A stretch of DNA of 64,000 bases from Motiliproteus sp. (GTDB lineage: Bacteria > Pseudomonadota > Gammaproteobacteria > Pseudomonadales > Balneatricaceae), in contig OZ245995.1 in NCBI GenBank assembly GCA_965230185.1, forward strand, positions 1,849,583-1,913,582. The letters are read 5' to 3'. Both the position numbers and the translations under genes were made by a program. The notes under the pieces were generated by a model, which saw nothing but the letters and a program-made list of their open reading frames with translations, was not told the DNA's origin and did not search any database. Of the stretch, positions 428-46,645 are shown piece after piece (the stretch's first letter is position 1; each line of letters starts with the position of its first letter).

Positions 428-1999
428 TCAACTGGCAGTGAGCTCTCGTTTCAGCTCGTCTTTGTTGATCTTGTTTTTATCGCTCTGCACCAGTGGCAAG
501 GACCGTTTATAGACCACCCGACCCGGGATCATATAGGAAGCCAGGTGCTTCTTGAGTTCAAACAGGATCTCCTTCTCAGAGATCTCACTGACCGATGAGT
601 AGACCATCACAATCTCTTCTTCGATAAGCTCGTTCTCGATGCCAAAGACCGCGCACTGGTCAATCTGCGGGATATTCCTGGCGACAACAGATTCGACTTC
701 GTAGGGAGAAACCCGGAAGCCTCTGGTCTTTATCATGTCATCATGTCTTGAGACAAAGTATAAATATCCCTCTTCGTCTTTATAGACGTAATCCCCGGTC
801 GCCACCACGAGTTCATCGGTCAGCTGACCTTCCAGATTGATAGCATCTTTGAGAATCTGAACCGATTTAAAGCGCAGTGCATTCTGCTCCGGCGCATTCC
901 AGAAACCACGGTAGATATAGCCGCCTCGATGGATCAGTTCACCTACTTCACGGACGCCACATTCTTTACCATCTTCATTGAGCACATAGAGCTCAACATC
1001 CGGAATCGCTTTACCGATGGAGTCCGGTCTGATCTGAACCTGTGAAGGATCAAGGTAGGTTGAGCGAAATGCTTCGGTCAGCCCGTGCATGGAGTAGAAG
1101 TCCGCCTTCTGGAAAGTCTTCTTGCAGTCTTTGATCATTCTGGCTGTAACATTGCCACCCGAGGAGGTAATGGTTTTGACGCTGTCAAACAGCTCCGGGC
1201 TTGGTATCCGTTGCAGGTCCTCATCAAACATCTGCGAAATATTCACGGGCATCAGCGGCAGAACAGTGACTTTGTCGTTGATCAGGTGATTAAAGAAGTC
1301 TTCCGGCAGAATAAACCGATGCAGTGCAAGCGTGGCTCTTTTATAGAGTGCGCAGAATATCTGATTTAATCCGTAATCAAGATTAAAGATCAGTAACCCT
1401 GAAATGACGTCATCTTCTTCCAGCTTCAGGTATTGAGAGACGACTCGGGCCGAATCGATCAGGTTCCGATGGGAAATAACGATCCCTTTCGGCGTTCCGG
1501 TCATGCCAAAAGAGTAGGTGATAACCGCATTATCATGGCCATTTACATCACAAATATACGGCTTGTTGTAGTATTTGTAGATCTCTTCAAATGAGGCGAT
1601 CTCTTTGGCCGTGGTTTCGTAGGAAATAATGTGGCCGTCAAAATCAATCTCTTCAATGCTTTCAAGCTTCAGCTTGTCTGTGATAATGCACTTAATATCA
1701 CAATCGTTAATGATGTACTCAACCTGTTCAGATTTGAGCATCTTTGTCAGCGGAACCAGGATGTAATCCGTAGACAGAATCGCGAGGATCGCTACAACCT
1801 GCTCAATACCCTTATTGGAATAGACTCCGATGCGGGTATCTTTTGGAAGCCCCAGCTCATTTAAATAGAAGGCTACCTGATTTACCCTGGTATAGAGTTC
1901 ATCATATGTAATGCTCTGATCATTAAACACCACAGCGGTTTTATCGCTGTGAGTCTGCACTGCCCCTTCAAGAAGCGCTCTGATACAGTTTATTGACAT
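428..1999 (-). CDS. Adenylate-forming enzyme (AMP-dependent synthetase/ligase, stand-alone A-domain-like)
   Basis: This 523-aa ORF has a P-loop-like motif SFGMTGTPKG and a core motif GDYVYKDEEGYLYFVSRHDDMIKTRGFRVSPYEVE. Its start overlaps the upstream gene's stop by 10 nt, consistent with an operon. Confidence 0.85.
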   Translation of the reverse strand: MSINCIRALLEGAVQTHSDKTAVVFNDQSITYDELYTRVNQVAFYLNELGLPKDTRIGVYSNKGIEQVVAILAILSTDYILVPLTKMLKSEQVEYIINDCDIKCIITDKLKLESIEEIDFDGHIISYETTAKEIASFEEIYKYYNKPYICDVNGHDNAVITYSFGMTGTPKGIVISHRNLIDSARVVSQYLKLEEDDVISGLLIFNLDYGLNQIFCALYKRATLALHRFILPEDFFNHLINDKVTVLPLMPVNISQMFDEDLQRIPSPELFDSVKTITSSGGNVTARMIKDCKKTFQKADFYSMHGLTEAFRSTYLDPSQVQIRPDSIGKAIPDVELYVLNEDGKECGVREVGELIHRGGYIYRGFWNAPEQNALRFKSVQILKDAINLEGQLTDELVVATGDYVYKDEEGYLYFVSRHDDMIKTRGFRVSPYEVESVVARNIPQIDQCAVFGIENELIEEEIVMVYSSVSEISEKEILFELKKHLASYMIPGRVVYKRSLPLVQSDKNKINKDELKRELTAS

Positions 2000-3192
2000 G
2001 ACTCTTTTCCTTTCGCGCCAAGCGTCCAGATATCGTAGTTAGTATCCAGAACAACTACAGGCTTGTGATCTGAGGTAAGAATTTTCTTATAGAAGAATGA
2101 CACGATATCTTCTATCTCTTCAGTGGTTAATACCTTGGTAATACCGCCGGTCAGCACCAGCGAATTTATCGCCAGCAACTTCAGGTTGACGTAGGCCTTG
2201 CGGTAATGGGAAATCTTACACAACACCAGAAAAACGGCGAGTTGCATCAATATCTTAGTTGCTTTTGCACTCTGCTCTTCAAAGATGTTCTCTGTTACTT
2301 TCAGATGCATCAGCAACTCATAGACAAACTCGTTATTCTTTGCTGCAAAAATCAATGACTGCTTTGATTTGTACACGCCCAGTTTTTTGAAAACGAGTCG
2401 GTCATATTCGTTTCTGGTCACGATATTATCGGCAACCAGGTCTTTTGAATAATGGACGTCTGTGGTAGCACCGCCAATATCAAGAAGTACGAAAGGATTC
2501 ACGACAGAATACCGTGCATCAATTAGTGGCAGCGCTTTATTTACAATGTATGGCGTTGAATAGATCTGATTGTCGGTAATATCATACAGATGCTTGATAT
2601 CTTCTTTACCTTCAATATCCTGCTGGTAAAGGTTAGTGAGATACTCTTTCAGTGCGTCTTCGACGATATGCAGTTTGTTGTCGATGATGTTTGGCAGAAT
2701 CACGACATCTTCAATATTCTCTTTTACTGCCGGAGCATCCTGCTCGCTGCCCACAAACACAATGTTGGAGTACTTCAGCTGATCAAGGTATCGATACAAG
2801 CTATCAGAAAACATACCGGCACATGAATCGATACCGCCCACCACAATAACGACATCGATAAGATCACTCGGCAGCGAGTACTCCTCTATATTCTGATAGA
2901 GGACCGTATCAATGATGTTGATGCCGGAATTGAAGGCGATATTAGTCGCATACTTCAGCGAATAGGAGTTTGTGATACCGATAATCAGCGTGCTTAAACC
3001 ACCGTTTGCAGACGAGCAGATATGCACATCATTTTTATCAAAGCGATCGATCGTATCGCCGCATTTATTGACCAGATCATCCAGAATATCCTTATTGAAA
3101 TCTCTGAAGTGCTGCTCAATACTGTTGGATGTGCTGACCTTGAAATAGGTACTGCCAACGTCAATAAGCAACTTGTCGTTATCCTGGCTCAT
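1990..3192 (-). CDS. glmL: GlmL/MutL-like glutamate mutase accessory protein (actin-fold ATPase)
   Basis: This 400-aa ORF has an N-terminal LLIDVGSTYFKV motif and an LLDIGGATTDVHY motif, both typical of GlmL/MutL-type ATPases. It shares an ATGA overlap with the upstream GlmE-like gene. Confidence 0.7.
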   Translation of the reverse strand: MSQDNDKLLIDVGSTYFKVSTSNSIEQHFRDFNKDILDDLVNKCGDTIDRFDKNDVHICSSANGGLSTLIIGITNSYSLKYATNIAFNSGINIIDTVLYQNIEEYSLPSDLIDVVIVVGGIDSCAGMFSDSLYRYLDQLKYSNIVFVGSEQDAPAVKENIEDVVILPNIIDNKLHIVEDALKEYLTNLYQQDIEGKEDIKHLYDITDNQIYSTPYIVNKALPLIDARYSVVNPFVLLDIGGATTDVHYSKDLVADNIVTRNEYDRLVFKKLGVYKSKQSLIFAAKNNEFVYELLMHLKVTENIFEEQSAKATKILMQLAVFLVLCKISHYRKAYVNLKLLAINSLVLTGGITKVLTTEEIEDIVSFFYKKILTSDHKPVVVLDTNYDIWTLGAKGKESCQ

Positions 3193-4553
3193 TGCATAAT
3201 TCCTATATCGTGAACAATATCATTGACGATACTGGTGGTATCTTTGGTCAAATCACACTGTGCTTTCTCATACTCGTAACAGCGGTCCGGAATAGGAACA
3301 TTTGCTCGCTTGATAATTCTGATGTTTTTATTGGCATCCCTGATAGTAATCATCTCGTTATGATTGATGATATGCGGTGAAAAAGGCACATCGATAATGC
3401 CGCTTTTTATCGAGTTGAAGACTTTCCGCCATAGCGTATCCGCCGGATCATTCAATACCGCCTCCATAATGGCTTTGACTTCCAGCGTCAGAATCTCTTC
3501 TTCCTCTTCGTCAACAACCTTCGGCAGTCCATTCAGTATGCCCAGAGTGTACTGAGTGTTGGCCACGGTCTTGGCATTGGCTTCTTTAGTCGGAATGCCC
3601 GCCGCCTCTTCCCGGGTTTTGGTGATGATCTTGTCGGCCCCCACCATGGCCGCAATCACCGTGGACATATTGATCAGCTGTTCGGCGTAGTCTTTATTGG
3701 TTGGGAAGGCGCCCATCCACTGGTGATATACCAGATGGATTGCCGCATCGGAGCAGTTGATCTGCTCGGCGTAGTAGCTGGCCAATTTCTTGATGACGGC
3801 CCCGGTGACGATATCCTGGTTCATGGAACCGGTCTGGGAAAATGAAACCGAGAAGGACTTAACACCCTCTTCCAGTGACAGCAACATCTCCAGCAGCTGA
3901 ATCACGATCGTGATGGCGGGTGGCACCAGGGTTGCGGTAAGCGGGCCAAACGATTCCCGATTGATCGGCAGATTCAGCTCCGAATAGTTGGCACAGACCC
4001 GTTCCACATACTTCCAGTACAGGAAGGCTTTATCCAGAGGAAAGTTCTTGGAATAGGGCAGGAGATAGGTAATCGGCCCGCCTTCTATCTCGAAGATACC
4101 GGATGCAATCGCTGTCTCGATCAGCAATCGGGCATCGGGAGTACCGTGTCTTAAACTCACCGGTTTATTGAAGTGAGTGATCATCTTGCGTGTCGTTCGA
4201 TAGCCATGATTAACCAGGGGATAACCATTGAGCATATCGATATCGTTTTCTTCGCTCAGCCGCAGCATTTTGCTTGCCGTAGCGTAGTCATTCAGGCGTG
4301 TATTGGAATCAATGGTCAACGGCAGAACGTCGACGTTAGCCTCGACAAAAAACTCATTCAGGGCAAACTGCTTTTTATAAGTGGGAAACCCACCCCTTGG
4401 CTGAACAAGCATCTTATTTCTGTTTTTGAAATGATGCGATATAAAGAGTTCTTTGTTGGCGTTTTTTACAAATTCTGTTACTTCGGCAAAGTCGAAAGTA
4501 TCAACATATTCATTGCTAAGAATTATTTCTCTTTCTTCTTGAAGCAAACTCAT
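3189..4553 (-). CDS. glmE: Glutamate mutase epsilon (large, catalytic) subunit-like protein
   Basis: This 454-aa ORF resembles the methylaspartate mutase E chain along its length (for example VQPRGGFPT, LPLTIDSNTRLN, SLRHGTPDARLL, EGGPITYLLPYSK). It shares ATGA overlaps with the genes on both sides. Confidence 0.75.
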   Translation of the reverse strand: MSLLQEEREIILSNEYVDTFDFAEVTEFVKNANKELFISHHFKNRNKMLVQPRGGFPTYKKQFALNEFFVEANVDVLPLTIDSNTRLNDYATASKMLRLSEENDIDMLNGYPLVNHGYRTTRKMITHFNKPVSLRHGTPDARLLIETAIASGIFEIEGGPITYLLPYSKNFPLDKAFLYWKYVERVCANYSELNLPINRESFGPLTATLVPPAITIVIQLLEMLLSLEEGVKSFSVSFSQTGSMNQDIVTGAVIKKLASYYAEQINCSDAAIHLVYHQWMGAFPTNKDYAEQLINMSTVIAAMVGADKIITKTREEAAGIPTKEANAKTVANTQYTLGILNGLPKVVDEEEEEILTLEVKAIMEAVLNDPADTLWRKVFNSIKSGIIDVPFSPHIINHNEMITIRDANKNIRIIKRANVPIPDRCYEYEKAQCDLTKDTTSIVNDIVHDIGIMQ

Positions 4554-16095: not shown

Positions 16096-18387
16096 GTGGT
16101 CGTTTTTAAGATCCTTAACAAGGTTACTGGTCAGAACTATGTGGGTTCCTGCCGGGGTGATATTTATGAGCGCTGGGAGCTCTATGCCCGGGCTGCTGAA
16201 GCCGGACTGGATTTTCCCATGTATCGGGAAATCCGTGAGCTGGGCGAAGAGCAGTTCTCCATCGTCGAGCTGGATTTCACGGAAGATCGGGAAGAGCTGA
16301 AGGAGATAGAGCTGCTCCATACCATCGAACTGAAGGCGCGTTCGCTGCGGGCGTATAAATTCGGAGTCAAGGATACGGTGGTCAAGCGTTGTACCAAGAC
16401 CGAACTGGACCAGGCCTGGATGAAGGAACTGTCCCAGCAGGTGCTTGAGGAACGTAATACCGAACTCGGCGTGAAGACACGCCTGCCGGCATCCGCAGAG
16501 GAAACATCGGAAGAGATCGCAGACAACAGTGGCAGGGTGAAAAGCGAAACGACCAGAGCAGACCAGAAATCCGCTGCCGCTGCGATTTCCCGGCTCAGGG
16601 CTATGTCGAAATCGACGACCGGCCGCAGTCCGGCCAGCCCGGATACCGCAGGGGAGGCCGGGCAGTCACCGGCTGCATTGTCCGCTGCCGCGACAGCACT
16701 ACTGAAGAAATCGCTGGGTGGTTCCGAATCTGTGAATTCGGCCGGAATTGGCAAGCAGGCACGGCAGGGGGAGTCGAAACCGGAGGATACACCGCTACGG
16801 ACTCCGGCTTCGGCCGACACGCTGTCGAAGCTGGCTGCACTGAAAGCGAAAGCCCAGGCGGAAAAAGCGAAGGCTGCGAAAGCCCAGAGAGTCGCGGAAG
16901 CACAGAAGGCCGCAGAAGCCCAGGAGGCAGCGGAAGCCCAGAGAGTCGCGGAAGTACAGAAGGCCGCAGAAGCCCTGGAGGCAGCGGAAGCCCAGAGAGT
17001 CGCAGAAGCGCAGCGGGCTGCGGAAGCACGTCGGGCCGCGGAAGAAACTGAGAACAGAAAAGCAGTCGGGAACAATGCAATGTCGGCCTCCCGTTCACCG
17101 GCGACTCCCGCATCCGTCGTCAGAGCCCCGTCTGCAGTGATCAGCCAGGTCAGCCCCGCTACTCAGGTTGCAGATGCCGAAACCGAACAGGAGCTGGAGA
17201 AAGCGATACTGGCAGAAGGCATCGGTTTGCTGGTGAAGACCCTGGGCAGTGCCGACAGGCTGACCCGCTTTCGCCGGCAGATCAGCGACCAGAGTCAGGC
17301 GGTAGCCCGGGCGCTGACCGAATCGGAGCAGGCGATCAGTCAGTTACAGAAACAACAGCAGCTGGCTGCCGAGCGGGCTCGTCAGGCGGTGGCTGCAGCA
17401 GAGGCGGCAGAGGCCGCTAACAGTGCTCTCAGTGAGGCTCACCAGCGCGCCCGTCGCTGTTCGGAAACGGTGCTTGAAGCGTTGCAGGAGAGCGCCGGAA
17501 CAGCAACTGAAGTCGAACAGCTGCAGGATGATCTTGTCTCGCTTCTCGACCGCCTGCGCGGCAGCACCGGCGGTACCGGTGACAAGCGGGCTGCAACGTC
17601 CGTGGCGGCCCACAGTCCGGGCTCAGATACGCAGCCGGAGGTTATCCCCTCTGCCAGTCGTTCTGTCAGCACGGCGACCGGGACTGTCGCCGAAGCGGAG
17701 TGCCAGACGCTGACAGAGACCACGGATAGCGTTGCTGTCGATACTTCCATCAGCCATCCTGAAATTAAAGAGGCAACAGCAGAGCCTGTTGAATCGGTTC
17801 CGGTTACTGAAAAACCGGAAGCGGATCTCATTACAGAGGCTGATAGCAACTCCGGAAACTCTCAGCCATCGTCTGGGGTTGTTATCGACCCTGTGGCAGA
17901 GGCTTCACCTGTTCAGTCATCGGTGGTTGAAACGTCTGCCGACGTGCCCGAGGGTATCGAGATGGTAAACCGGCTGAAGCAGCTGGGACAACTCTTGCAG
18001 CAGGAGTCCACACAGGTGCCGGAATCGGACCGGGCTGAATTGACAGCGCAGCCCGGCGCCGCCTCTGAGAGTGTTGTTGTGGTAAGCGAAGATTCTGACG
18101 AAGGCTCGGACCAGAATTCCGGGGAGCCGGAAAGTACGGTGTCAGCCGGCGCCCGTGCCTGGGTGGCACCGCTGGAGGAAGGACAGAACAGCGCTCGGGT
18201 CGTCGCCAGTGCCGCAGCGGCTAAGGTGGTGCGCCGTCGCTCCAGACAGGTTTCACTGAACGACAGCGGCGGTCGCCAGGTTCTCAATCCTCAGAATACT
18301 GTGGATGGTGGTTCTGTTTCGGCTGCGTTGTCCGTTACCGGGCGCCCGGTGCTGAGCCGGAAAAAACTGAGCATTCGAAGCCGCTGA
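16096..18387 (+). CDS. Protein with a GIY-YIG-like N-terminal domain and a ~650-aa low-complexity Ala/Glu/Gln/Ser-rich tail
   Basis: This 763-aa ORF starts at GTG. Its N-terminus, VFKILNKVTGQNYVGS...YERW...MYREIRELGEEQFSIVELDF...EIELLH, matches GIY-YIG spacing (about 10 aa between the GIY-like and YIG elements). Residues ~250-320 are imperfect AEAQ(K/R)(A/V)AEAQ repeats, seen as roughly 60-bp DNA repeats at 16860-17040. Confidence 0.65.
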   Translation: MVVFKILNKVTGQNYVGSCRGDIYERWELYARAAEAGLDFPMYREIRELGEEQFSIVELDFTEDREELKEIELLHTIELKARSLRAYKFGVKDTVVKRCTKTELDQAWMKELSQQVLEERNTELGVKTRLPASAEETSEEIADNSGRVKSETTRADQKSAAAAISRLRAMSKSTTGRSPASPDTAGEAGQSPAALSAAATALLKKSLGGSESVNSAGIGKQARQGESKPEDTPLRTPASADTLSKLAALKAKAQAEKAKAAKAQRVAEAQKAAEAQEAAEAQRVAEVQKAAEALEAAEAQRVAEAQRAAEARRAAEETENRKAVGNNAMSASRSPATPASVVRAPSAVISQVSPATQVADAETEQELEKAILAEGIGLLVKTLGSADRLTRFRRQISDQSQAVARALTESEQAISQLQKQQQLAAERARQAVAAAEAAEAANSALSEAHQRARRCSETVLEALQESAGTATEVEQLQDDLVSLLDRLRGSTGGTGDKRAATSVAAHSPGSDTQPEVIPSASRSVSTATGTVAEAECQTLTETTDSVAVDTSISHPEIKEATAEPVESVPVTEKPEADLITEADSNSGNSQPSSGVVIDPVAEASPVQSSVVETSADVPEGIEMVNRLKQLGQLLQQESTQVPESDRAELTAQPGAASESVVVVSEDSDEGSDQNSGEPESTVSAGARAWVAPLEEGQNSARVVASAAAAKVVRRRSRQVSLNDSGGRQVLNPQNTVDGGSVSAALSVTGRPVLSRKKLSIRSR

Positions 18388-18457
18388 GGGGCGGCTTTCC
18401 CCTGGCCCGCCACTTCAGATCCTGATCGGCCAGAGGCAATCGGGCCGGGATGAGCCG

Positions 18458-18500
18458 GGCAGACCACCAGGTTGTCAGAATCTGATGGCCTGCCTTTTTT
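18458..18500 (+). terminator. Putative rho-independent terminator after the GIY-YIG-like gene
   Basis: The imperfect stem GGCAGACCA ... TGGCCTGCC is followed by TTTTTT. Confidence 0.5.
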
Positions 18501-18666
18501 GCTTGTGTCTTATTTATGCAAACACAATCAGACTTGTTGTTTGCTTTGTGGCAACAAAGAGTTTTCAAAAAAATCAGATAGGAATCATGCCTGGTTCGCT
18601 GTGATTCAATTTAATGGCTTTACTTAACAAGTAGTTAGGTTTTATTTCCAGCTTCTGAAAATAAGC

Positions 18667-18682
18667 TGGCATGGTCGCTGCA
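18667..18682 (+). promoter_or_regulatory. Sigma-54 (-24/-12) promoter, peptide gene copy A
   Basis: TGGCATGGTCGCTGCA compares with the consensus TGGCAC-N5-TTGCW. The GG and GC elements are spaced correctly, and the element lies 54 nt upstream of the ATG. Confidence 0.65.
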
Positions 18683-18735
18683 ATATCCTGAGTGTCTTCA
18701 ACAGACTGCCTTCACAAAGAACCAGGAGTAAGATT

Positions 18736-18996
18736 ATGACCGCAGCCGTCCCCATGAAACAGCCGATGACCCTGATCGATCTGCCGATCAATAAGGAACT
18801 GGACCAGAGTGCCATGAAGCAGCTGGCCGGTGGTCACACCGCCGGAACCACGGTGAGTTATTCCTACTACACCACCATCCAGACCCAGTCGATCGGTTTC
18901 CTTAAGCGTCACCGTCGTAAGTACCACCACACTCGCAGAACCGTTCAGCGCTGGCACACTTACGGTCGTTGGGGCCGCTGGCACTTCCACCTGTAA
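18736..18996 (+). CDS. 86-aa double-glycine-leader cationic peptide precursor, copy A
   Basis: An AGGAG Shine-Dalgarno site lies 7 nt upstream and a terminator lies downstream. The protein is identical in all 4 copies, and every inter-copy nucleotide difference is synonymous. The leader is ...INKELDQSAMKQLAGG and the 53-aa core has no Asp, Glu or Cys. Confidence 0.85.
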   Translation: MTAAVPMKQPMTLIDLPINKELDQSAMKQLAGGHTAGTTVSYSYYTTIQTQSIGFLKRHRRKYHHTRRTVQRWHTYGRWGRWHFHL

Positions 18997-19045
18997 CTGA
19001 CAGGTAGCGCAGGCAGTAAGCTCTGAGAGCGATCTGCACTGACAG

Positions 19046-19069
19046 AAAAGGGGCTTCGGCCCCTTTTTT
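19046..19069 (+). terminator. Intrinsic terminator of copy A
   Basis: GGGGC-TTCG-GCCCC followed by TTTTTT. Confidence 0.85.
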
Positions 19070-19572
19070 GATATCCCCACCGCTGATCCGATCTCCTCCT
19101 GTCGATTATTATCCCTACCCATAATCCGATAACCTGCAGTCGGTTGCTATTCCTGTCGATGTCCCGCTCTGTCAATTCTGAGACAGATCCTCGCCAGTCC
19201 GTCACGATCCTTTTCTTCGAAGCCCGTCAGCGCCTGTTTCGGTATCAGCCGCAAGCTGTGATCCGGGTTGCCGGGACTGTCGCCGTGCGCCGCGCCTGTG
19301 GTGTTTCAGAGTACTTCCTGTCGATCCCTGAAAAAACCGGCTCCGATTCGGCCGTTGTCCGTGGGATCGGAAGTCCAGCGCCTTCTCCGGTGCCGAATGG
19401 CGATATTTTCTGCTGTCTGGTTTTCAGCAACAGTGTCAGAGAAATCGTTGGACGTTTCAGAACATAGCAGTCCGGGTGGTTGTCAGGGGATATCATCAAT
19501 TCGCGGTGGGAGTGATTTTTTTGTCCTACAGAACAACGCTTTATGTGCTTTTTGCTGGTGTCGATAAAAAGC

Positions 19573-19588
19573 TGGCACGGCGGCTGCA
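19573..19588 (+). promoter_or_regulatory. Sigma-54 (-24/-12) promoter, copy B
   Basis: TGGCACGGCGGCTGCA matches 15 of the 16 positions of TGGCACG-N4-TTGCW, counting the four N positions. Confidence 0.7.
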
Positions 19589-19641
19589 GTACCTTAAGTG
19601 TCTTCAACAGACTGCCTTCACAAAGAACCAGGAGCAGGATT

Positions 19642-19902
19642 ATGACCGCAGCCGTCCCCATGAAACAGCCGATGACCCTGATCGATCTGCCGATCAATAA
19701 GGAACTGGACCAGAGTGCCATGAAGCAGCTGGCCGGTGGTCACACCGCCGGAACCACAGTGAGTTATTCTTACTACACCACCATTCAGACCCAGTCGATC
19801 GGTTTCCTTAAGCGTCACCGTCGTAAGTACCACCACACTCGCAGAACCGTTCAGCGCTGGCACACTTACGGTCGTTGGGGCCGCTGGCACTTCCACCTGT
19901 AA
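19642..19902 (+). CDS. 86-aa double-glycine-leader cationic peptide precursor, copy B
   Basis: This copy has the same protein as copy A, with three synonymous differences (ACG>ACA, TCC>TCT, ATC>ATT). The ORF-track entry 19543..19902 includes a spurious 5' extension. Confidence 0.85.
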   Translation: MTAAVPMKQPMTLIDLPINKELDQSAMKQLAGGHTAGTTVSYSYYTTIQTQSIGFLKRHRRKYHHTRRTVQRWHTYGRWGRWHFHL

Positions 19903-19951
19903 TTGACAGGTACCGCAGGCAGTAAGCTCTGAGAGCAATCTGCACTGACAG

Positions 19952-19976
19952 AAAAGGGGCTTCGGCCCCTTTTTTT
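19952..19976 (+). terminator. Intrinsic terminator of copy B
   Basis: GGGGC-TTCG-GCCCC followed by TTTTTTT. Confidence 0.85.
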
Positions 19977-20469
19977 GGTTCTTCGCGCATAATAGTGAAA
20001 GTTCCGTAGCCTGCGCTGAGCGGACGTTTGCTTTAGTGATGCTTTGGGAGTTTAAAGCTCGTTTGCAGAGTCAGCTGATGTTTTTTGTTGCGCCCCGCGG
20101 CATTCGAACGTCCTTATTCATCAAAAGTGCACCCCACTTTGCCGCCCTGCGCGGTCCACTGCGTGCGATAGCGAAGCTGGGGGCGTCTGGACAGCGCTTC
20201 CCTACACTGACCATCTGGATCAGCTTACTTGCCTCGCCCCATTCCGGGCCTGATTCCATCCTCGTCACCGTGCTCGCCGGCTACGAGGGGAGAGGTGCCA
20301 AATTCGAACTACGGGAGTTAGTAGGCCCATTTTGTCGGCCTGAAGGCCGACCCACATGTAGCACGATCGTAGGTCGGGCTTCAGCCCGACAAATGGATTC
20401 CAGCTTGTGCCAATCCCGACGTCGGCTTTGCAGCCCAAAGCCGCCAATCCCCTTAAAGCGCGAAGAACC
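19977..20469. mobile_element. 493-bp MITE-like non-autonomous element (copy 1) inserted in the terminator T-tract
   Basis: It has perfect 12-bp terminal inverted repeats, GGTTCTTCGCGC ... GCGCGAAGAACC, flanked by T7 and T6. The empty sites at copies A and D read GGCCCC-TTTTTT-GATATCCCC, and the occupied site resumes with TTTTTT-GTTATCCCC. There is no credible ORF. It contains an inverted REP-like hairpin pair at 20321-20390. Confidence 0.55.
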
Positions 20470-21028
20470 TTTTTTGTTATCCCCATCTATCTTCCGCCCT
20501 CTGTCTGCTAATCCTGAGGCAGACTTCCAGAAGTCCCCAGGTCTCTTTTCCGCAAGCTGCGGACTTCGACTGCTACCACCAGCTGAGATGCCCACCCGGA
20601 TAATGCCGGTTCCTCCGCCCGTTCCTTGGCCCACCGCGCTTACTGCTGAATATTCTCAGCAGCCCCCCCCCCGAGAACCTGTAAACCGATCTGGCAGTTT
20701 CGCTGTCTCTCTAGGCCTCTCTGGGGCGTGAAAATGGCATCGGAGCCACTGAGAAACGCTCCTGCTCCGTTGTTGAGCGCCAGGTCCGGTCCGATTTTTG
20801 GCATGTTTTCCGGAGGGGGTGGAGGTGACAGCGCTGTCGGTTTTTATTCTTTCTGCCAGGTTTCAGGGGTGTTTTGTTTATAGGAACACTGGCATAAAAA
20901 TAGTTAGCTTACTGGGAACATAATTGCTTCGGTAATTGTTCGCAGATATTAAGCATCAGTGAATAATGAAGATTTTTATTTCAAATAAAACAATCGGTTG
21001 TGGTTTTTTTTGACTGTAAGCAGAAAGC

Positions 21029-21044
21029 TGGCACGGCCGCTGCA
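21029..21044 (+). promoter_or_regulatory. Sigma-54 (-24/-12) promoter, copy C
   Basis: The sequence is TGGCACGGCCGCTGCA. Confidence 0.7.
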
Positions 21045-21097
21045 CTACCTTAAGTGTCTTCAACAGACTGCCTTCACAAAGAACCAGGAGTAAGATT

Positions 21098-21358
21098 ATG
21101 ACCGCAGCCGTCCCCATGAAACAGCCAATGACCCTGATCGATCTGCCGATCAATAAGGAACTGGACCAGAGTGCCATGAAGCAGCTGGCCGGTGGTCACA
21201 CCGCCGGAACCACGGTGAGTTATTCCTATTACACCACCATCCAGACCCAGTCGATCGGTTTCCTTAAGCGTCACCGTCGTAAGTATCACCACACTCGCAG
21301 AACCGTTCAGCGCTGGCACACTTACGGTCGTTGGGGCCGCTGGCACTTCCACCTGTAA
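21098..21358 (+). CDS. 86-aa double-glycine-leader cationic peptide precursor, copy C
   Basis: This copy has the same protein, with three synonymous differences from copy A (CCG>CCA and TAC>TAT twice). Confidence 0.85.
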   Translation: MTAAVPMKQPMTLIDLPINKELDQSAMKQLAGGHTAGTTVSYSYYTTIQTQSIGFLKRHRRKYHHTRRTVQRWHTYGRWGRWHFHL

Positions 21359-21407
21359 TTGACAGGTACCGCAGGCAGTAAGCTCTGAGAGCGATCTGCA
21401 CTGACAG

Positions 21408-21432
21408 AAAAGGGGCTTCGGCCCCTTTTTTT
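21408..21432 (+). terminator. Intrinsic terminator of copy C
   Basis: GGGGC-TTCG-GCCCC followed by TTTTTTT. Confidence 0.85.
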
Positions 21433-21925
21433 GGTTCTTCGCGCATAATAGTGAAAGTTCCGTAGCCTGCGCTGAGCGGACGTTTGCTTTAGTGATGCTT
21501 TGGGAGTTTAAAGCTCGTTTGCAGAGTCAGCTGATGTTTTTTGTTGCGCTCCGCGGCATTCGAACGTCCTTGTTCATCGAAAGTGCACCCCACTTTGCCG
21601 CCCTGCGCGGTCCACTGCGTGCGATAACGAGGCTGGGGGCGTCTGGACAGCGCTTCCCTACACTGACCATCTGGCTCGGCTTGCTTGTCTCGCTCCATTC
21701 CGGGCCTGATTCCATCCTCGTCACCGTGCTCGCCGGCTACGAGGGGAGAGGTGCCAAATTCGAACTACGGGAGTTAGTAGGCCCATTTTGTCGGCCTGAA
21801 GGCCGACCCACATGTAGCACGATCGTAGGTCGGGCTTCAGCCCGACAAATGGATTCCAGCTTGTGCCAATCCCGACGTCGGCTTTGCAGCCCAAAGCCGC
21901 CAATCCCCTTAAAGCGCGAAGAACC
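21433..21925. mobile_element. 493-bp MITE-like element (copy 2), same position relative to peptide copy C
   Basis: It has the same 12-bp terminal inverted repeats (21433-21444 and 21914-21925). It differs from copy 1 mainly in a block that corresponds to 20090-20250. Confidence 0.55.
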
Positions 21926-22356
21926 TTTTTTGTTATCCCCATCTATCTTCCGGCCTCTGTCTGCTAATCCTGAGGCAGACTTCCGGAAGTCCCCAGGTCT
22001 CTTTTCCGCAAGCTGCGGACTTCGACTGCTACCACCAGCTGAGATGCCCACCCGGATAATGCCGGTTCCTCCGCCCGTTCCTTGGCCCACCGCGCTTACT
22101 GCTGAATAATCTCAGCCCCCCCGAGAACCTGTAAACCGATCTGGCAGTTTCGCTGTCTCTCTAGGCGTCTCTGGGGCGTGAAAATGGCATCGGAGCCACT
22201 GAGAAGCGCTCCTGCTCCGTTGTTGAGCGCCAGGTCCGGTCCGATTTTTGGCATGTTTTCCGGAGGGGGTGGAGGTGACAGCGCTGTCGGTTTTTATTCT
22301 TTCTGCCAGGTTTCAGGGGTGTTTTGTTTATAGGAACACTGGCATAAAAATAGTTA

Positions 22357-24051
22357 GTGTCCATCCATAAACGGCATCTTTTACGGATGCCCCTTATGGC
22401 AGAGAGGATCAGCTTGATCCTTCTTTGCCTATTTCGTGTCCCATTCACTCCAATCTGATGTCGAAGACAGATTGTAGGCCCCCCTGTCAGCCATTTTTGG
22501 CCATAGCTATTCATCGGTCAGTCGATGACCGGGGAGCTTGCTGCCGTCTCCTCGCTGGTGGGGCGGCTATGTGGCTGGCTGTCGCGAGAGCACGGCCAAG
22601 TTATGCACTACCACCGCAGACCAGACGTACGCCTTAAAATGCTCCAGTCCCTTCCAAGTGCAACGTGCCAAGCCGTAGGACCGCTTGAGGCAGGAGATGC
22701 CGGCTTCGACCCCTGCCCGGAAGTTGCGCAGTTTGCGATACACCCAATCACTCTTCGTCATCTGTGCAACCTTCAGGCCCTTTTTCTTGCTGAACGCCAC
22801 ATCTTTCACACCTTTTTCTTTGGCCAACTGCACATTGACTTTGCTGGCGTAACCGCCATCGGCTGCCATTTGCCGGGGAGCCCGTCCATAGATCTCTATC
22901 TGCCGCTCCAGCAGCGGAATAAAGCGCTCGCTGTCGGCCGGGTTACCGTCCTCGATTACCGCATCGAGAATCAACCCGCTCCGGCCGGTGGCCAAGTTCA
23001 GCTTGTGCCCATATTGAATATCGCGGCTACCTTTGACGATGATATCGCTGTGCTCCTCAAACAGGCTAAAGACCTTCTCTGCGGCGGGCACCTGTTCGCC
23101 TTTTATCACCCGCCGTTCGGCTTGATCGACCACCCGCTCAATCAGCGCCTGGTAGTGTTTGGCCTGCTCCTGCCAACCGGCGAATGCCGCATCATCCAGT
23201 TTCAGTAGGCTTAGCTGCAACCATGCCTTGGCCAGGTAATCGAGACCCTTGCCGGTTACCTTGATCAGATCCCGATACCATCGAACTTTCTTCTCCTTCC
23301 CTCTCGAATACTGGATCTGGTAGGCGCGCTTCTTGGCTACGCGTCGATGGTCATGCCAATCCAGGCGTGTCTCCCCCGCCAACTCTTGGGCTTGTTGCAA
23401 GAGCCGAACCTGAGTGCGGACGGCATCCCATAGCAGGCTACTATCACTCGGGGCATGGATCGGCGTCTCTGTGACGGTGCTATCGACCCGAACTGTGCGC
23501 CCTCGCTCGATCTTTAGCTCTTTCGCATCCTGCAACATCAATCGGTTGATCTGCTCCCAGACTGCATCGCGAATCGCTCCGATCCCCCCCTGGAGAGCAG
23601 ACTTCTTCGGCCGCCAGGTCTGTGGCAAGCGCGCAAAGGCTTGCAATGAAAGCGAGTCCTCCAAGTAAAAGGCCAACTCCTCATAGCTGAGCTGACGGTA
23701 TTGCTTGAGAATGGCACATCGCAGTATCGACTCCGCGGACAACCCCTCTCGCCCGGTGTTTTGGGCGTCCTGCCGGCACAGATCCTCAGCGACCCATTCC
23801 AGTATCTCGGAATGAGCATCCAGCCAATCGGACATCGTCTTTAATTCACGGCCGATCTCGTGATTGGCATACACATCGAATATACTGCTCTGGACAGTGC
23901 GTTTTTGACGCATTGTGGCCTCCGTGGGTTTTGGCTTTTTCTTTTATTTCAATGGGTTGAAACAAAAGATACCATTATCCACGTGAGGCATCACCGCTTA
24001 TCTCTTCATTTTCTCCAATAATATCAGCATATTACGTTTATGGATGGACAC
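22357..24051 (-). mobile_element. IS element (~1.7 kb, DDE transposase of the IS4/IS5 superfamily)
   Basis: It has 17-bp perfect terminal inverted repeats (GTGTCCATCCATAAACG). A direct duplication TAGTTA(G) is present at 22351-22357 and 24052-24058. The uninterrupted target sequence is visible at 20911-20917 in the neighbouring repeat unit. Confidence 0.9.
22567..23913 (-). CDS. IS transposase (DUF772-type N-terminus + DDE_Tnp_1-type catalytic domain; IS5/ISNCY-like)
   Basis: This 448-aa ORF has the motifs LSYEELAFYLEDSLSLQAFARL, VRVDSTVTETPIHAPSDSSLLWD, ADGGYAS and FRAGVEAGISCLKRSYGLARC. Confidence 0.85.
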   Translation of the reverse strand: MRQKRTVQSSIFDVYANHEIGRELKTMSDWLDAHSEILEWVAEDLCRQDAQNTGREGLSAESILRCAILKQYRQLSYEELAFYLEDSLSLQAFARLPQTWRPKKSALQGGIGAIRDAVWEQINRLMLQDAKELKIERGRTVRVDSTVTETPIHAPSDSSLLWDAVRTQVRLLQQAQELAGETRLDWHDHRRVAKKRAYQIQYSRGKEKKVRWYRDLIKVTGKGLDYLAKAWLQLSLLKLDDAAFAGWQEQAKHYQALIERVVDQAERRVIKGEQVPAAEKVFSLFEEHSDIIVKGSRDIQYGHKLNLATGRSGLILDAVIEDGNPADSERFIPLLERQIEIYGRAPRQMAADGGYASKVNVQLAKEKGVKDVAFSKKKGLKVAQMTKSDWVYRKLRNFRAGVEAGISCLKRSYGLARCTWKGLEHFKAYVWSAVVVHNLAVLSRQPAT

Positions 24052-24179
24052 TAGTTAGCTTACTGGGAACATAATTGCTTCGGTAATTGTTCGCAGATAT
24101 TAAGCATCAGTGAATAATGAAGATTTTTATTTCAAATAAAACAATCTGTTGTAGTTTTTTTTGACTGTAAGCAGAAAGC

Positions 24180-24195
24180 TGGCACGGCGGCTGCA
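24180..24195 (+). promoter_or_regulatory. Sigma-54 (-24/-12) promoter, copy D
   Basis: The sequence is TGGCACGGCGGCTGCA. Confidence 0.7.
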
Positions 24196-24248
24196 ATACC
24201 TTAAGTGTCTTCAACAGACTGCCTTCACAAAGAACCAGGAGCAAGATT

Positions 24249-24509
24249 ATGACCGCAGCCGTCCCCATGAAACAGCCGATGACCCTGATCGATCTGCCGA
24301 TCAATAAGGAACTGGACCAGAGTGCCATGAAGCAGCTGGCCGGTGGTCACACCGCCGGAACCACGGTGAGTTATTCCTATTACACCACCATCCAGACCCA
24401 GTCGATCGGTTTCCTTAAGCGTCACCGTCGTAAGTATCACCACACTCGCAGAACCGTTCAGCGCTGGCACACTTACGGTCGTTGGGGCCGCTGGCACTTC
24501 CACCTGTAA
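24249..24509 (+). CDS. 86-aa double-glycine-leader cationic peptide precursor, copy D
   Basis: This copy has the same protein, with two synonymous differences from copy A that are shared with copy C. Confidence 0.85.
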   Translation: MTAAVPMKQPMTLIDLPINKELDQSAMKQLAGGHTAGTTVSYSYYTTIQTQSIGFLKRHRRKYHHTRRTVQRWHTYGRWGRWHFHL

Positions 24510-24558
24510 TTGACAGGTACCGCAGGCAGTAAGCTCTGAGAGCGATCTGCACTGACAG

Positions 24559-24582
24559 AAAAGGGGCTTCGGCCCCTTTTTT
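24559..24582 (+). terminator. Intrinsic terminator of copy D
   Basis: GGGGC-TTCG-GCCCC followed by TTTTTT. Confidence 0.85.
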
Positions 24583-24746
24583 GATATCCCCACCGCTGAT
24601 CCGATCTCCTCCTGTCGATTATTGTCCCTACCCATAATCCGATGACCTACAGTCGGTTGTTATCCCTGTCGATGTCCCGCTCCTGGTCTGTCGATTCTGA
24701 GACAGGCCCCGCCAGTCCCTTCAGTGTCAGCCGGCCCTGAACAGGG

Positions 24747-25358
24747 TCAGGATATGGCCGATAACAGGAAATCAACGGTATTTCTTGCATGCACCTCAAT
24801 CTGTTGATCATCAGGCCTTTCCATCCCAATCAGTACAGCACCGCGATGGGCAAGTAACATCGCCGTCCACAACCGCACCGTGGTTTTGACGTCCCTGACA
24901 TTCAGTCTTTCCGAGAAAAACTCTGACAGTTTCTCATCCGTCTCATCTGGTCCGACGGCGCAGAAGCTGCGGGTCATCTCCGGAGCTTTGGCGCCTTCAG
25001 CAACCAGTAGCCTGTAGGTGGCCAGATGCTCGTCCGACAGATGGGCCCGGATGAAGTCCCGGGCAAATTTATACAGGGCCTGTTCCGTATCGGTATCCTG
25101 CAGGTGCGCAAGAAAACTCATCTCCGAGCTTTCGCCCATCTGCTGAAGGGTTGCTCTGAAAAGATCTGATTTGGACGGGAAATACCGGTAAATGGTCTGC
25201 TTTGTCACCTTCGCCTGAACGGCAATTCTGTCCATACTGGCGAGTACATAGCCATCGGACAGGAAAACCCCCTGTGCCGCCTGCAGAATGGCCTGTCGCT
25301 TTCTCTCTTTGTTCTGCTCTATTTTGCTCACGCGCTCTGGTCCATCAATATTTATCAT
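24747..25358 (-). CDS. TetR/AcrR family transcriptional regulator
   Basis: The HTH is KRQAILQAAQGVFLSDGYVLASMDRIAVQAKVTKQTIYRYFPSKSDLF. The start is placed at the internal ATG 25358, and the longer ORF would run through the operator region. Confidence 0.8.
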   Translation of the reverse strand: MINIDGPERVSKIEQNKERKRQAILQAAQGVFLSDGYVLASMDRIAVQAKVTKQTIYRYFPSKSDLFRATLQQMGESSEMSFLAHLQDTDTEQALYKFARDFIRAHLSDEHLATYRLLVAEGAKAPEMTRSFCAVGPDETDEKLSEFFSERLNVRDVKTTVRLWTAMLLAHRGAVLIGMERPDDQQIEVHARNTVDFLLSAIS

Positions 25359-46512: not shown

Positions 46513-46548
46513 ACTGCCGATCAGCGTACTCAGAGACGCTGTGAAAAA

Positions 46549-46625: not shown

Positions 46626-46645
46626 ACTACAGATGACTTAAGGGA

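What the first reader, a model, noticed from the sequence alone, without database searches (positions are those of the whole stretch)
18660..24590. Four self-contained copies of an 86-aa double-glycine-leader, hyper-cationic peptide gene with no exporter, immunity gene or maturase nearby
The ORF MTAAVPMKQPMTLIDLPINKELDQSAMKQLAGG|HTAGTTVSYSYYTTIQTQSIGFLKRHRRKYHHTRRTVQRWHTYGRWGRWHFHL occurs four times (18736, 19642, 21098, 24249). Each copy has an AGGAG ribosome-binding site, its own promoter-like element and a strong GGGGC-TTCG-GCCCC-T6/7 terminator.

The N-terminal 33 aa end in ...LDQSAMKQLAGG. This matches the hydrophobic spacing of the double-glycine leader consensus (LSxxELxxIxGG) used by class II bacteriocins and microcins and many RiPPs.

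The 53-aa region after GG has no Asp, Glu or Cys. It contains 8 Arg, 2 Lys, 7 His, 3 Trp, 5 Tyr and 9 Thr, giving a Thr/Tyr/Ser-rich N-half and an Arg/His/Trp-rich C-half. That composition recalls cationic Trp/Arg antimicrobial peptides more than the Gly/Ser-rich Gram-negative microcins I know.

No C39-peptidase ABC exporter, immunity-like small membrane protein, radical-SAM or other maturase, or sigma-54 activator is present in the 64-kb window.

Working hypothesis (inference): this is a multi-copy, strongly inducible secreted peptide, either a bacteriocin/microcin-like toxin or a RiPP precursor, whose processing machinery is encoded elsewhere. The aromatic-x-basic triplets YGR, WGR and WHF also resemble substrates of three-residue-cyclophane radical-SAM maturases. 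An alternative is an intracellular, highly basic nucleic-acid-binding mini-protein.
Basis: partly seen in the sequence, partly recalled or inferred. Interest (0 to 1): 0.88.

Follow-up and report, generated by a model that had tools for sequence, protein, structure and literature searches.

The report
Sigma-54-driven multicopy cationic leader-peptide gene
Four near-identical stand-alone genes, each switched on by a sigma-54 promoter with conserved activator sites, encode an uncharacterised 86-residue peptide that looks like an export-leader plus a very basic beta-sheet peptide; the gene is real and conserved, but export and function are unproven.

Summary
There are four copies of an 86-aa ORF with identical protein sequence, an AGGAG ribosome-binding site and a GGGGCTTCGGCCCC-T6/7 terminator, and the reported composition is exact.

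The gene is protein-coding. All 6 sites that vary among the copies are synonymous, and dN/dS against orthologues is about 0.1-0.2.

The "promoter-like element" is a sigma-54 promoter (TGGCAY-N5-CTGCA). It occurs only at the four copies in the window (0.09 expected). It precedes every close homologue found, and a variant of it precedes the most distant one (32% identity).

Two dyads of the form TGTT-N11-AACA sit at about -159 and -127 from the promoter in unrelated flanks. These are probably activator binding sites.

The family is tiny (about 20 sequences), unnamed and has no Pfam or NCBIfam model. It occurs in marine or sediment Gammaproteobacteria (Motiliproteus and Neptunomonas MAGs), in several copies per genome, always monocistronic and with unrelated neighbours.

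The invariant leader residues are exactly -1, -2, -7 and -12, with -4 nearly invariant. These are the positions read by C39/PCAT peptidases. No exporter, immunity gene, maturase or activator lies near any copy, and the rest of the genome could not be searched.

Best reading (about 0.4): an inducible, exported double-glycine peptide whose machinery is encoded elsewhere. Main rival: an intracellular polycationic mini-protein.

The parts
18506..18524 (+). Unit 1, upstream dyad A (TGTCTTATTTATGCAAACA), -161 from the promoter; candidate enhancer-binding-protein site
   Evidence: same position in 14 of 15 family loci with enough upstream sequence
18538..18556 (+). Unit 1, upstream dyad B (TGTTTGCTTTGTGGCAACA), -129
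18667..18682 (+). Unit 1 sigma-54 promoter TGGCATGGTCGCTGCA (-24 GG / -12 GC)
18736..18996 (+). Copy 1 CDS, 86 aa. Leader is 18736-18834 (33 aa, ends in GG). Core is 18835-18993 (53 aa). RBS AGGAG at 18724-18728.
19046..19069 (+). Unit 1 intrinsic terminator AAAAGGGGCTTCGGCCCCTTTTTT
   Evidence: sequence; conserved in all copies; conserved in close homologues
19414..19432 (+). Unit 2, upstream dyad A (TGTCTGGTTTTCAGCAACA), -159
19573..19588 (+). Unit 2 sigma-54 promoter TGGCACGGCGGCTGCA
19642..19902 (+). Copy 2 CDS, 86 aa
19950..19976 (+). Unit 2 terminator
19568..21023 (+). First 1456-bp tandem unit. It holds peptide gene 2 plus about 1 kb of spacer with no credible ORF and with REP-like hairpins. 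The unit is repeated at 21024-22357 and 24051-24174.
   Evidence: sequence
20870..20888 (+). Unit 3, upstream dyad A (TGTTTTGTTTATAGGAACA), -159
20902..20920 (+). Unit 3, upstream dyad B (AGTTAGCTTACTGGGAACA), -127
21029..21044 (+). Unit 3 sigma-54 promoter TGGCACGGCCGCTGCA
21098..21358 (+). Copy 3 CDS, 86 aa
21406..21432 (+). Unit 3 terminator
22320..22338 (+). Unit 4 dyad A, now displaced 1.7 kb from its promoter by the IS insertion
22358..24050 (-). IS element: a DDE_Tnp_1/DUF772 transposase at 22567-23913 (-), 17-18 bp terminal inverted repeats (TGTCCATCCATAAACGG) and a TAGTTA(G) target duplication. It is inserted between dyads A and B of unit 4.
24053..24071 (+). Unit 4, upstream dyad B (AGTTAGCTTACTGGGAACA), -127. 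Its left half is regenerated by the IS target duplication.
24180..24195 (+). Unit 4 sigma-54 promoter TGGCACGGCGGCTGCA
24249..24509 (+). Copy 4 CDS, 86 aa
24559..24582 (+). Unit 4 terminator AAAAGGGGCTTCGGCCCCTTTTTT

Best explanation
Each copy is an independent, monocistronic cassette of about 0.6 kb. It consists of two activator dyads (TGTT-N11-AACA at about -159 and -127), an A/T-rich spacer, a sigma-54 promoter, a roughly 55-nt 5' UTR with a strong RBS, an 86-codon ORF and an intrinsic terminator.

Transcription is off unless an unidentified bacterial enhancer-binding protein, encoded elsewhere, is activated. At least 6 gene copies in this genome would then fire together and give a burst of precursor.

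The product is a precursor. A 33-aa double-glycine-type leader, with an amphipathic helix over about residues 20-31, is recognised by the C39 peptidase domain of a PCAT-type ABC exporter encoded elsewhere. The leader is cut after Gly33. A 53-aa peptide of about 6.66 kDa and charge +10, rich in His, Arg, Trp and Tyr and predicted to be a three-stranded beta meander, is released from the cell. There it acts on a polyanionic target such as a competitor's envelope, in the manner of a microcin or bacteriocin.

Status of each step:
- Shown here: the gene is coding and under purifying selection; the sigma-54 promoter and the dyads are conserved with the gene across the whole family; the genes are monocistronic, multicopy and have no conserved neighbours.
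- Inferred: dependence on a dedicated activator.
- Inferred from the conservation pattern only: cleavage after GG and export.
- Speculative: extracellular antimicrobial activity.
For: Coding:
- All 6 variable sites among the four copies are synonymous. Nonsynonymous changes are 0 of about 200 sites, against pS of 0.05-0.10.
- dN/dS is 0.13-0.16 against L001, L003 and L004, and 0.11 between the two Motiliproteus paralogues.

Sigma-54 promoter:
- TGGCAY-N5-CTGCA occurs 4 times in the window, only at the four copies, with 0.09 expected.
- It is present upstream of every homologue in L001-L012.
- A variant, TGGCAT-N5-TTGAA, precedes the most distant homologue.

Activator sites:
- The dyad [TA]GT[TC]-N11-[AG]AC[AT] lies at -157 to -161 in 14 of 15 loci with enough upstream sequence.
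- A second dyad lies at -124 to -129 in about 9 loci. This includes L013, at 32% protein identity in an AT-rich genome.
- The background rate is 2.7e-4 per nt per strand.

Leader:
- The invariant columns across 11 sequences are D15, L16, L22 (-12), M27 (-7), G32 and G33. L30 (-4) is nearly invariant.
- This matches the C39 recognition pattern Leu-12...Leu-7...Val-4...Gly-Gly (PMC6363468).
- Indels sit at the extreme N-terminus and just after GG.
- AlphaFold gives a helix at 20-31 followed by a beta meander at 42-79, with core pLDDT 71-89.
- The leading NCBIfam near-hits, and the only ones shared by more than one family member, are GG-leader RiPP models.

No Sec signal peptide is evident in the sequence (by eye; no predictor was run).
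Against: - No PCAT or C39 ABC transporter, HlyD partner, immunity-like gene or enhancer-binding protein lies within the 64-kb window or near any of more than 10 homologous loci. Two of these were examined over 20 kb.
- The leader scores below every curated double-glycine model (14.2 against 25 bits). Position -8 is Ala rather than Glu.
- The core is more conserved than the leader in most close comparisons. No other core shares this leader. That pattern suits a folded protein with one fixed partner.
- The spacing L-x4-M-x2-L followed by GG is also what an amphipathic helix packing on a beta sheet, followed by a turn, would look like.
- A toxin gene without linked immunity is unusual.
- The helix and leader region of the model is low confidence (pLDDT below 50).
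Confidence: 0.4

Rival explanations
1. An intracellular, uncleaved 86-aa mini-protein. The helix at 20-31 packs on, or regulates, the polycationic beta sheet, and GG is simply a helix-terminating turn. It is made in a burst under a sigma-54-controlled stress or nutrient signal. It binds a polyanion in the cell, such as RNA, DNA, the ribosome or polyphosphate, acting like a hibernation or nucleoid factor.
For: - The core is under stronger constraint than the leader in most close pairs, and leader and core are never found apart.
- No exporter, immunity gene or maturase lies near any copy in any genome.
- The protein has charge +10 with no acidic residue in 53 aa.
- The top Foldseek hits, though weak, are helix-on-sheet folds such as cystatin and NTF2-like.
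- Many sigma-54 regulons are intracellular stress or nitrogen responses (general knowledge).
Against: - Foldseek matches are not significant (best E = 0.19, TM about 0.3). The helix is not confidently placed (pLDDT below 50).
- No similarity was found to any known nucleic-acid-binding or ribosome-associated family.
- This reading does not explain why the invariant N-terminal residues fall precisely on the -1/-2/-7/-12 register (with -4 nearly invariant), or why the segment right after GG is the most indel-prone part.
Confidence: 0.3
2. A RiPP precursor. The GG leader recruits an unlinked maturase before export. Candidates are an rSAM cyclophane-forming enzyme acting on the conserved [WYF]-H-x-[YF]-G-x-W motif, or a JmjC/RoxA-type Arg/His hydroxylase.
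For: - There are sub-threshold hits to the RiPP leader models TIGR04149 (4 of 11 members) and TIGR04497 (2 of 11).
- H74, G77 and W79 are invariant, and aromatics are conserved at positions 73 and 76.
- In two MAG contigs (L001, L002) a JmjC_2+WHD_ROXA gene lies 128 nt downstream of the peptide gene.
Against: - No rSAM, YcaO, LanM, MNIO or ATP-grasp gene lies near any copy.
- The JmjC neighbour occurs in only one of the eight or so distinct contexts. It is separated from the peptide gene by the terminator. It looks like the ordinary ribosomal oxygenase gene.
- The core is conserved rather than hypervariable.
- All model scores are below their cut-offs.
Confidence: 0.15
3. The conserved unit is a sigma-54-dependent regulatory RNA, like the multicopy Qrr sRNAs, and the ORF is incidental or secondary.
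For: It is multicopy, sigma-54-driven, short (about 400 nt) and terminator-bounded.
Against: - The substitution pattern is that of a protein. All 6 differences among copies are synonymous, and dN/dS is about 0.1-0.2.
- Amino-acid motifs persist at 32-37% identity while the DNA has diverged.
- There is no Rfam match even at E<=1.
- UTRs are poorly conserved outside close relatives.
Confidence: 0.02

Closest known systems
Double-glycine-leader peptides processed by C39/PCAT (AMS) transporters: class II bacteriocins and class II microcins such as colicin V (CvaC)
   Same: - An N-terminal leader ends in Gly-Gly, with conserved hydrophobic residues at -4, -7 and -12 and a predicted helix.
- The mature part is small (53 aa).
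- No Sec signal is evident by eye.
- The host is Gram-negative.
   Different: - The leader is 33 aa, against about 15-19 in microcins (own knowledge).
- Ala replaces Glu at -8.
- The mature part is hyper-cationic and rich in His, Arg, Trp and Tyr. Known class II microcins are Gly/Ser/Ala-rich and hydrophobic (own knowledge).
- No linked immunity, PCAT or MFP genes are present.
- Control is by sigma-54 and an activator.
- The genes are multicopy and dispersed.
- No curated model hit reaches its cut-off.
TIGR04149 (GG_sam_targ_CFB), a family of rSAM-modified RiPP precursors in Bacteroidota
   Same: It is the best, though sub-threshold, profile match. The match lies on the leader segment ending in GG (residues 20-39). 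Its members are also paralogous small-peptide families.
   Different: - The score is 14.2 bits against a 25-bit cut-off.
- The phylum is different.
- No rSAM/SPASM neighbour is present.
- The core is Cys-free.
Prochlorosin-type organisation: many precursor genes scattered in a genome and served by one distant maturase and PCAT (own knowledge)
   Same: Precursor genes with a conserved GG-type leader are dispersed and unlinked to processing or export genes, with several copies per genome.
   Different: Prochlorosin cores are hypervariable and leaders are Nif11-like. Here the core is conserved, and identical in four copies. The regulation is sigma-54.
Regulatory analogues: VasH/sigma-54 control of orphan hcp loci in Vibrio cholerae, and PrsR/sigma-54 'PEP-CTERM box' genes (own knowledge, not tested)
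   Same: Small secreted-protein genes are scattered around the genome. Each has its own sigma-54 promoter and a shared upstream box. They are driven by one activator encoded at the machinery locus.
   Different: There is no sequence relationship. The activator and machinery here are unidentified.
Qrr sRNAs (multicopy sigma-54/LuxO-dependent small transcripts)
   Same: They are multicopy, sigma-54-dependent, short, terminator-bounded units.
   Different: This unit encodes a protein under purifying selection. There is no Rfam match. The upstream dyad is not the LuxO site.

Membership tests
Double-glycine (C39/PCAT-processed) leader peptides | Gly-Gly (or Gly-Ala/Gly-Ser) at -2/-1 | tested here: met
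   G32 and G33 are invariant in all 11 aligned family members, including those at 32-37% identity
Double-glycine (C39/PCAT-processed) leader peptides | Hydrophobic residues at -4, -7 and -12 on a helix (Leu-12-x3-Glu-8-Leu-7; Val-4) | tested here: met
   L22 (-12) and M27 (-7) are invariant and L30 (-4) is nearly invariant. A helix is predicted at 20-31, at low confidence. The pattern is taken from PMC6363468. Glu-8 is replaced by Ala.
Double-glycine (C39/PCAT-processed) leader peptides | Match to a curated double-glycine or bacteriocin leader profile | tested here: not met
   The best NCBIfam hit is TIGR04149 at 14.2 bits (cut-off 25), E=0.03. Pfam gave no leader or bacteriocin family.
Double-glycine (C39/PCAT-processed) leader peptides | A C39-peptidase ABC exporter (with an MFP in Gram-negatives) encoded in the genome, usually adjacent | tested here: inconclusive
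   None is present in the 64-kb window or near any homologous locus.
Double-glycine (C39/PCAT-processed) leader peptides | Cleavage after GG and export of the mature peptide | not testable with these tools
   Needs LC-MS of supernatant or an in vitro C39 assay
Class II microcins | Compact cluster of structural gene, immunity gene, PCAT and MFP | tested here: not met
   Every copy is monocistronic with its own terminator, and neighbours are unrelated across loci
RiPP precursors (rSAM cyclophane/triceptide, TIGR04149-type) | Co-located maturase (rSAM/SPASM or other) | tested here: not met
   No such Pfam domain was found in the window or in the L010, L011 and L013 contexts
RiPP precursors (rSAM cyclophane/triceptide, TIGR04149-type) | Conserved leader with a variable core | tested here: not met
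   Core dN/dS (0.06-0.14) is at or below leader dN/dS (0.2-0.33) in most close pairs. No different core shares this leader.
Sigma-54-dependent promoters | -24 GG and -12 GC elements with TGGCAC-N5-TTGCW spacing, at a suitable distance upstream of the gene | tested here: met
   TGGCA[CT]-N5-CTGCA lies 54-55 nt upstream of each ATG. There are 4 hits against 0.09 expected. It is conserved in homologues L001-L012. L013 has TTGAA at -12.
Sigma-54-dependent promoters | Upstream activator sequences for an enhancer-binding protein | tested here: met
   Dyads TGTT-N11-AACA lie at fixed positions of about -159 and -127 in unrelated flanks. Binding itself was not tested.
Sigma-54-dependent promoters | Transcription requires RpoN and a cognate activator | not testable with these tools
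   No bEBP (GAFTGA motif) is present in the window or the loci. Genetics or RNA-seq is needed.
Sigma-54-dependent sRNAs (Qrr-like) | Conserved RNA sequence and structure without coding constraint | tested here: not met
   No Rfam hit at gathering score or at E<=1. The substitution pattern is that of a coding sequence.

The most novel reading that the evidence does not exclude
A previously undescribed, deeply conserved regulon module. One dedicated enhancer-binding protein recognises paired TGTT-N11-AACA dyads. Through sigma-54 it drives scattered multicopy genes for a polycationic, Cys-free beta-sheet peptide with a double-glycine leader. This would be a new class of Gram-negative exported peptide (microcin-like toxin or signal) that is genetically unlinked from its exporter, immunity and regulator.
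Probability: 0.35. Interest if true: 0.75.

Novelty: new variant of a known kind. Interest (0 to 1): 0.6.

Why it matters
If the peptide is exported, it would broaden the very small known set of Gram-negative double-glycine peptides. It would add a chemically different type (hyper-cationic, His/Arg/Trp/Tyr-rich, beta-sheet). It would also show that such genes can live as scattered, activator-gated cassettes, which cluster-based genome mining misses.

Independently of function, the strict co-inheritance of gene, sigma-54 promoter and paired dyads gives a clean way to find an unassigned enhancer-binding protein and its signal. The family has no name, Pfam model or NCBIfam model, so any function assigned would be new annotation.

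Tried and rejected
- **RNA families.** Rfam at gathering score on the whole window, and at E<=1 on 18400-24800, found nothing at the repeats. The RNA-only reading was rejected, also because of the synonymous-only variation.
- **Protein families.** Pfam, NCBIfam, PHROGs and PADLOC on the peptide and on distant homologues gave only sub-threshold noise.
- **Solved structures.** A PDB sequence search and Foldseek of the AlphaFold model against PDB gave no significant match.
- **Exhaustive profile search.** The search of 1.84 billion representatives found only 4 further relatives. It also found one spurious hit to a repeat adhesin, P0017, whose TLDQSAVQDLDAG repeats mimic the leader.
- **Leader-only profile search.** This was run to find other cores sharing the leader. 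It found only the same family plus truncated or frameshifted calls.
- **Collection scans.**
  - The first genome-contig scan found nothing.
  - The second found 3 loci in Motiliproteus and Neptunomonas MAGs.
  - The metagenome-contig scan returned only the already known sediment contig.
  - The viral-contig scan found none, so the family is not phage-borne.
- **The window's own genome.** Attempts to reach it through exact look-up of P0001, P0002 and P0007 failed. The genome-wide search for a C39 exporter or activator could not be done.
- **JmjC/RoxA neighbour.** The neighbour in L001 and L002 was considered as a maturase. It was set aside because it occurs in only one of the eight or so contexts and lies behind the terminator.
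- **Literature.** Searches for sigma-54 combined with double-glycine, microcin, RiPP or PCAT, for Motiliproteus and Neptunomonas, and for the dyad motif found no description of this family.
- **L004b.** The 82-aa ORF at the end of L004 is not a homologue.

Full report
**1. The observation**

The four ORFs exist at the stated coordinates: 18736-18996, 19642-19902, 21098-21358 and 24249-24509, all on the + strand. All four translate to the same 86-aa protein.

An alignment of the four loci shows where the repeated unit begins and ends.
- It starts abruptly at AAGCTGGCAC, about 70 nt before the ATG.
- It ends at the T-run after GGGGCTTCGGCCCC.
- The unit is therefore one promoter-to-terminator cassette of about 400 nt.

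AGGAG lies 7 nt before each ATG.

**2. It is a protein-coding gene**

The four copies differ at 6 positions inside the ORF, and all 6 are synonymous third-position changes.
- There are no nonsynonymous differences at about 200 sites, while pS between copies is 0.05-0.10.
- Only about 23% of random changes would be synonymous, so six out of six has P of about 1e-4.

Against orthologues:
- dN/dS is 0.13-0.16 for L001, L003 and L004.
- It is 0.11 between the two Motiliproteus paralogues L010 and L011.
- In most close pairs the core (0.06-0.14) is more constrained than the leader (0.2-0.33).

Rfam finds nothing at the repeats, either at gathering thresholds or at E<=1. The "conserved RNA" alternative is rejected.

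**3. The promoter is sigma-54 type and travels with the gene**

Each copy is preceded by TGGCA[CT]-N5-CTGCA, the -24 GG / -12 GC elements.
- This pattern occurs four times in the 64-kb window, only at the four copies, with 0.09 expected by chance.
- The same element, almost always TGGCAC-N5-CTGCAATA, precedes every homologue recovered in L001-L012.
- That includes the distant ones in L008 and L009.
- The most distant homologue, P0016 in L013, has TGGCAT-N5-TTGAA.

Further upstream, flanking sequences are otherwise unrelated, yet two dyads of the form TGTT-N11-AACA sit at fixed distances from the promoter.
- Dyad A lies at -157 to -161 in 14 of 15 loci with enough upstream sequence.
- Dyad B lies at -124 to -129 in about 9 loci, roughly three helical turns from A.
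- The background frequency of the relaxed pattern is 2.7e-4 per nt per strand.
- L013 comes from an AT-rich genome and shares only 32% protein identity, yet has perfect TGTT-N11-AACA at both -159 and -126.

I read these dyads as binding sites for one conserved enhancer-binding protein. This is inference, since binding was not tested. I found no published site with this consensus.

No enhancer-binding protein is encoded in the window or in any fetched locus. Pfam scans found none, and no GAFTGA motif occurs in any frame.

**4. Local architecture**

Copies 2, 3 and 4 are a tandem array of a 1456-bp unit. Each unit holds the peptide cassette plus about 1 kb of spacer without a credible ORF.

The spacing between copies 3 and 4 is inflated by a 1.69-kb IS element at 22358-24050.
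- It carries a DDE_Tnp_1/DUF772 transposase on the - strand.
- It has 17-18-bp terminal inverted repeats and a TAGTTA(G) target duplication.
- It landed exactly between dyads A and B of copy 4. That copy therefore keeps only dyad B close to its promoter.

Copy 1 and copy 4 share the same downstream flank.

Two further paralogues, P0002 and P0007 at 95% identity, are recorded on a contig of the same 5,812,322-bp length. The genome therefore has at least six copies.

**5. The family**

Three searches were run: a word-indexed search of 5.8 billion proteins, an exhaustive profile search of 1.84 billion representatives, and a leader-only profile search.
- Together they give only about 20 distinct sequences of 82-94 aa.
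- The only name any source gives is "hypothetical protein".
- None has a Pfam domain.

Named sources are MAGs of Motiliproteus sp. (two copies) and Neptunomonas sp.. The rest come from unnamed MAG contigs and from marine or sediment metagenomes. The family was not found in viral contigs.

Several genomes carry two or more copies. Neighbours differ at every locus:
- a JmjC/RoxA-like oxygenase, or an acyl-CoA dehydrogenase (L001, L002);
- a nitroreductase (L003);
- DUF599 and arginase (L004, L005);
- a HAD hydrolase and an HPP membrane protein (L010);
- a cupin, an aminotransferase IV and a TRAP transporter (L011);
- a FecR protein, a cadherin-repeat protein and a two-component system (L013).

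None contains a C39/ABC exporter, an HlyD partner, an rSAM enzyme or a sigma-54 activator.

**6. What the protein looks like**

Across 11 sequences down to 32% identity the invariant positions fall in two groups.
- In the N-terminal part: D15, L16, L22, M27, G32 and G33, with D23, A26 and L30 nearly invariant.
- In the C-terminal part: Q49, R60, H64, H74, G77 and W79, with G54, F55, L56 and T69 nearly invariant.

Counted back from the Gly-Gly, L22, M27 and L30 are positions -12, -7 and -4. These are exactly the hydrophobic positions that C39 peptidase domains read on a helical leader. The reference pattern is Leu-12-x3-Glu-8-Leu-7, with Val-4/Leu-7/Leu-12 sitting in the LahT groove (PMC6363468). 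Position -8 is Ala, not Glu.

Indels are confined to the extreme N-terminus and to the 8-10 residues right after GG. That is the pattern expected for a leader and the N-terminus of a mature peptide.

AlphaFold2 with the family alignment gives the following.
- A low-confidence leader (pLDDT below 50) with a helix at residues 20-31.
- A moderately confident core (pLDDT 71-89) forming a three-stranded antiparallel beta meander: strands 42-53, 56-67 and 71-79.

Foldseek and PDB sequence searches give nothing significant. The leading NCBIfam near-hits are the GG-leader RiPP models TIGR04149 (4 of 11 members, best E 0.024, 14 bits against a 25-bit cut-off) and TIGR04497 (2 of 11). Two unrelated families each weakly matched a single member.

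**7. Interpretation**

Firmly established:
- a real, selected small-protein gene;
- one cassette per copy;
- sigma-54 promoter and paired upstream dyads co-inherited with the gene throughout the family;
- multicopy, dispersed genes with no conserved neighbours.

Best-supported mechanism (confidence about 0.4): an activator-gated burst of a precursor whose double-glycine leader is removed by a PCAT-type exporter encoded elsewhere. This would release a 53-aa polycationic beta-sheet peptide.

The evidence for the export step is only the conservation register, the predicted helix and the placement of indels.

Against it:
- no linked exporter or immunity gene anywhere;
- failure to reach any curated leader-model cut-off;
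- a core that is more conserved than the leader;
- a leader that is never combined with another core.

The same hydrophobic spacing followed by GG could be an amphipathic helix and turn in a small intracellular helix-plus-sheet protein that binds a polyanion. I rate this rival at about 0.3.

A RiPP variant (about 0.15) has no positive evidence beyond the weak leader hits and a single-context JmjC neighbour that sits behind the terminator.

Dispersed precursor genes served by distant machinery have precedents: prochlorosins, and sigma-54/VasH-driven orphan hcp loci. These are analogies from my own knowledge, not tests.

**8. Limits**

The genome that contains the window could not be reached outside the window. 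So does the search for the activator. No expression or proteomic data are available.

**9. Verdict**

- The thing is an uncharacterised, rare family that I classify as a new variant of the double-glycine-leader peptide theme. It has an unusual, deeply conserved sigma-54/activator control and an orphan, multicopy organisation.
- Interest is about 0.6. It is attractive because it is directly testable, through the defined dyads, the predicted cleavage site and the predicted mass. Its function is still inferred.

Noticed in passing
window 22358-24050: An IS element (DDE_Tnp_1/DUF772 transposase, 448 aa, - strand; terminal inverted repeats TGTCCATCCATAAACGG; TAGTTA(G) duplication) is inserted precisely between the two upstream dyads of peptide copy 4. 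It moves dyad A 1.7 kb away, so copy 4 may be regulated differently from the others.
   Followed up: partly
window 19977-21023 and 21433-22357: The roughly 1-kb spacer of the 1456-bp tandem unit has no credible ORF on either strand. It contains REP-like G+C-rich hairpins, for example GTCGGCCTGAAGGCCGAC and GTCGGGCTTCAGCCCGAC around 20334-20394. There is no Rfam match. Its nature is unknown.
   Followed up: partly
window 16096-18387 (+): A 763-aa ORF lies directly upstream of copy 1. Its N-terminus is GIY-YIG/homing-endonuclease-like (PHROG hits, E=1e-5; weak PADLOC UzuA hit). It has an 18-nt (6-aa, AEAQ[KR]A-type) tandem repeat at 16835-17044 and a long low-complexity tail. There is no Pfam hit.
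   Followed up: partly
window 47927-53658 (+): A Wadjet/Mks-type condensin-like defence operon: JetA (PF18982), DUF4194/MksE (JetB) and an SMC-like JetC of 1161 aa. The following ORFs at 53839-55360 have no Pfam hit; one could be JetD.
   Followed up: no
window 46437-46721 (-): A cluster of three tRNA genes: Asn-GTT, Pro-TGG and Asn-GTT.
   Followed up: no
L001 3520-4737 and L002 2849-4054: A roughly 400-aa JmjC_2 + WHD_ROXA (ribosomal-oxygenase-like) gene lies 128 nt downstream of the peptide gene in two MAG contigs whose upstream genes differ. It is probably a chance neighbour, but an Arg/His hydroxylase next to an Arg/His-rich peptide is worth a co-occurrence test.
   Followed up: partly
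L012 4320-4586; proteins P0019, P0021, P0022: The Neptunomonas MAG copy has an in-frame stop in the leader (…AAMQ*LVGG…). Two metagenomic members are frameshifted or truncated. These may be sequencing errors or decaying copies.
   Followed up: no
L013 9913-9928: The most distant homologue keeps both TGTT-N11-AACA dyads perfectly. Its -12 element reads TTGAA instead of TTGC/CTGC. It may be a weakened or atypical sigma-54 promoter.
   Followed up: no
window 428-4553 (-): A methylaspartate (glutamate) mutase E chain, a MutL-like reactivase and an AMP-binding enzyme form an apparent operon at the left end of the window.
   Followed up: no
protein P0005 (113 aa): The public gene call for this homologue starts too far upstream. 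Its N-terminal extension is a translation of the sigma-54 promoter and 5' UTR, so automatic annotation of the family is inconsistent.
   Followed up: no
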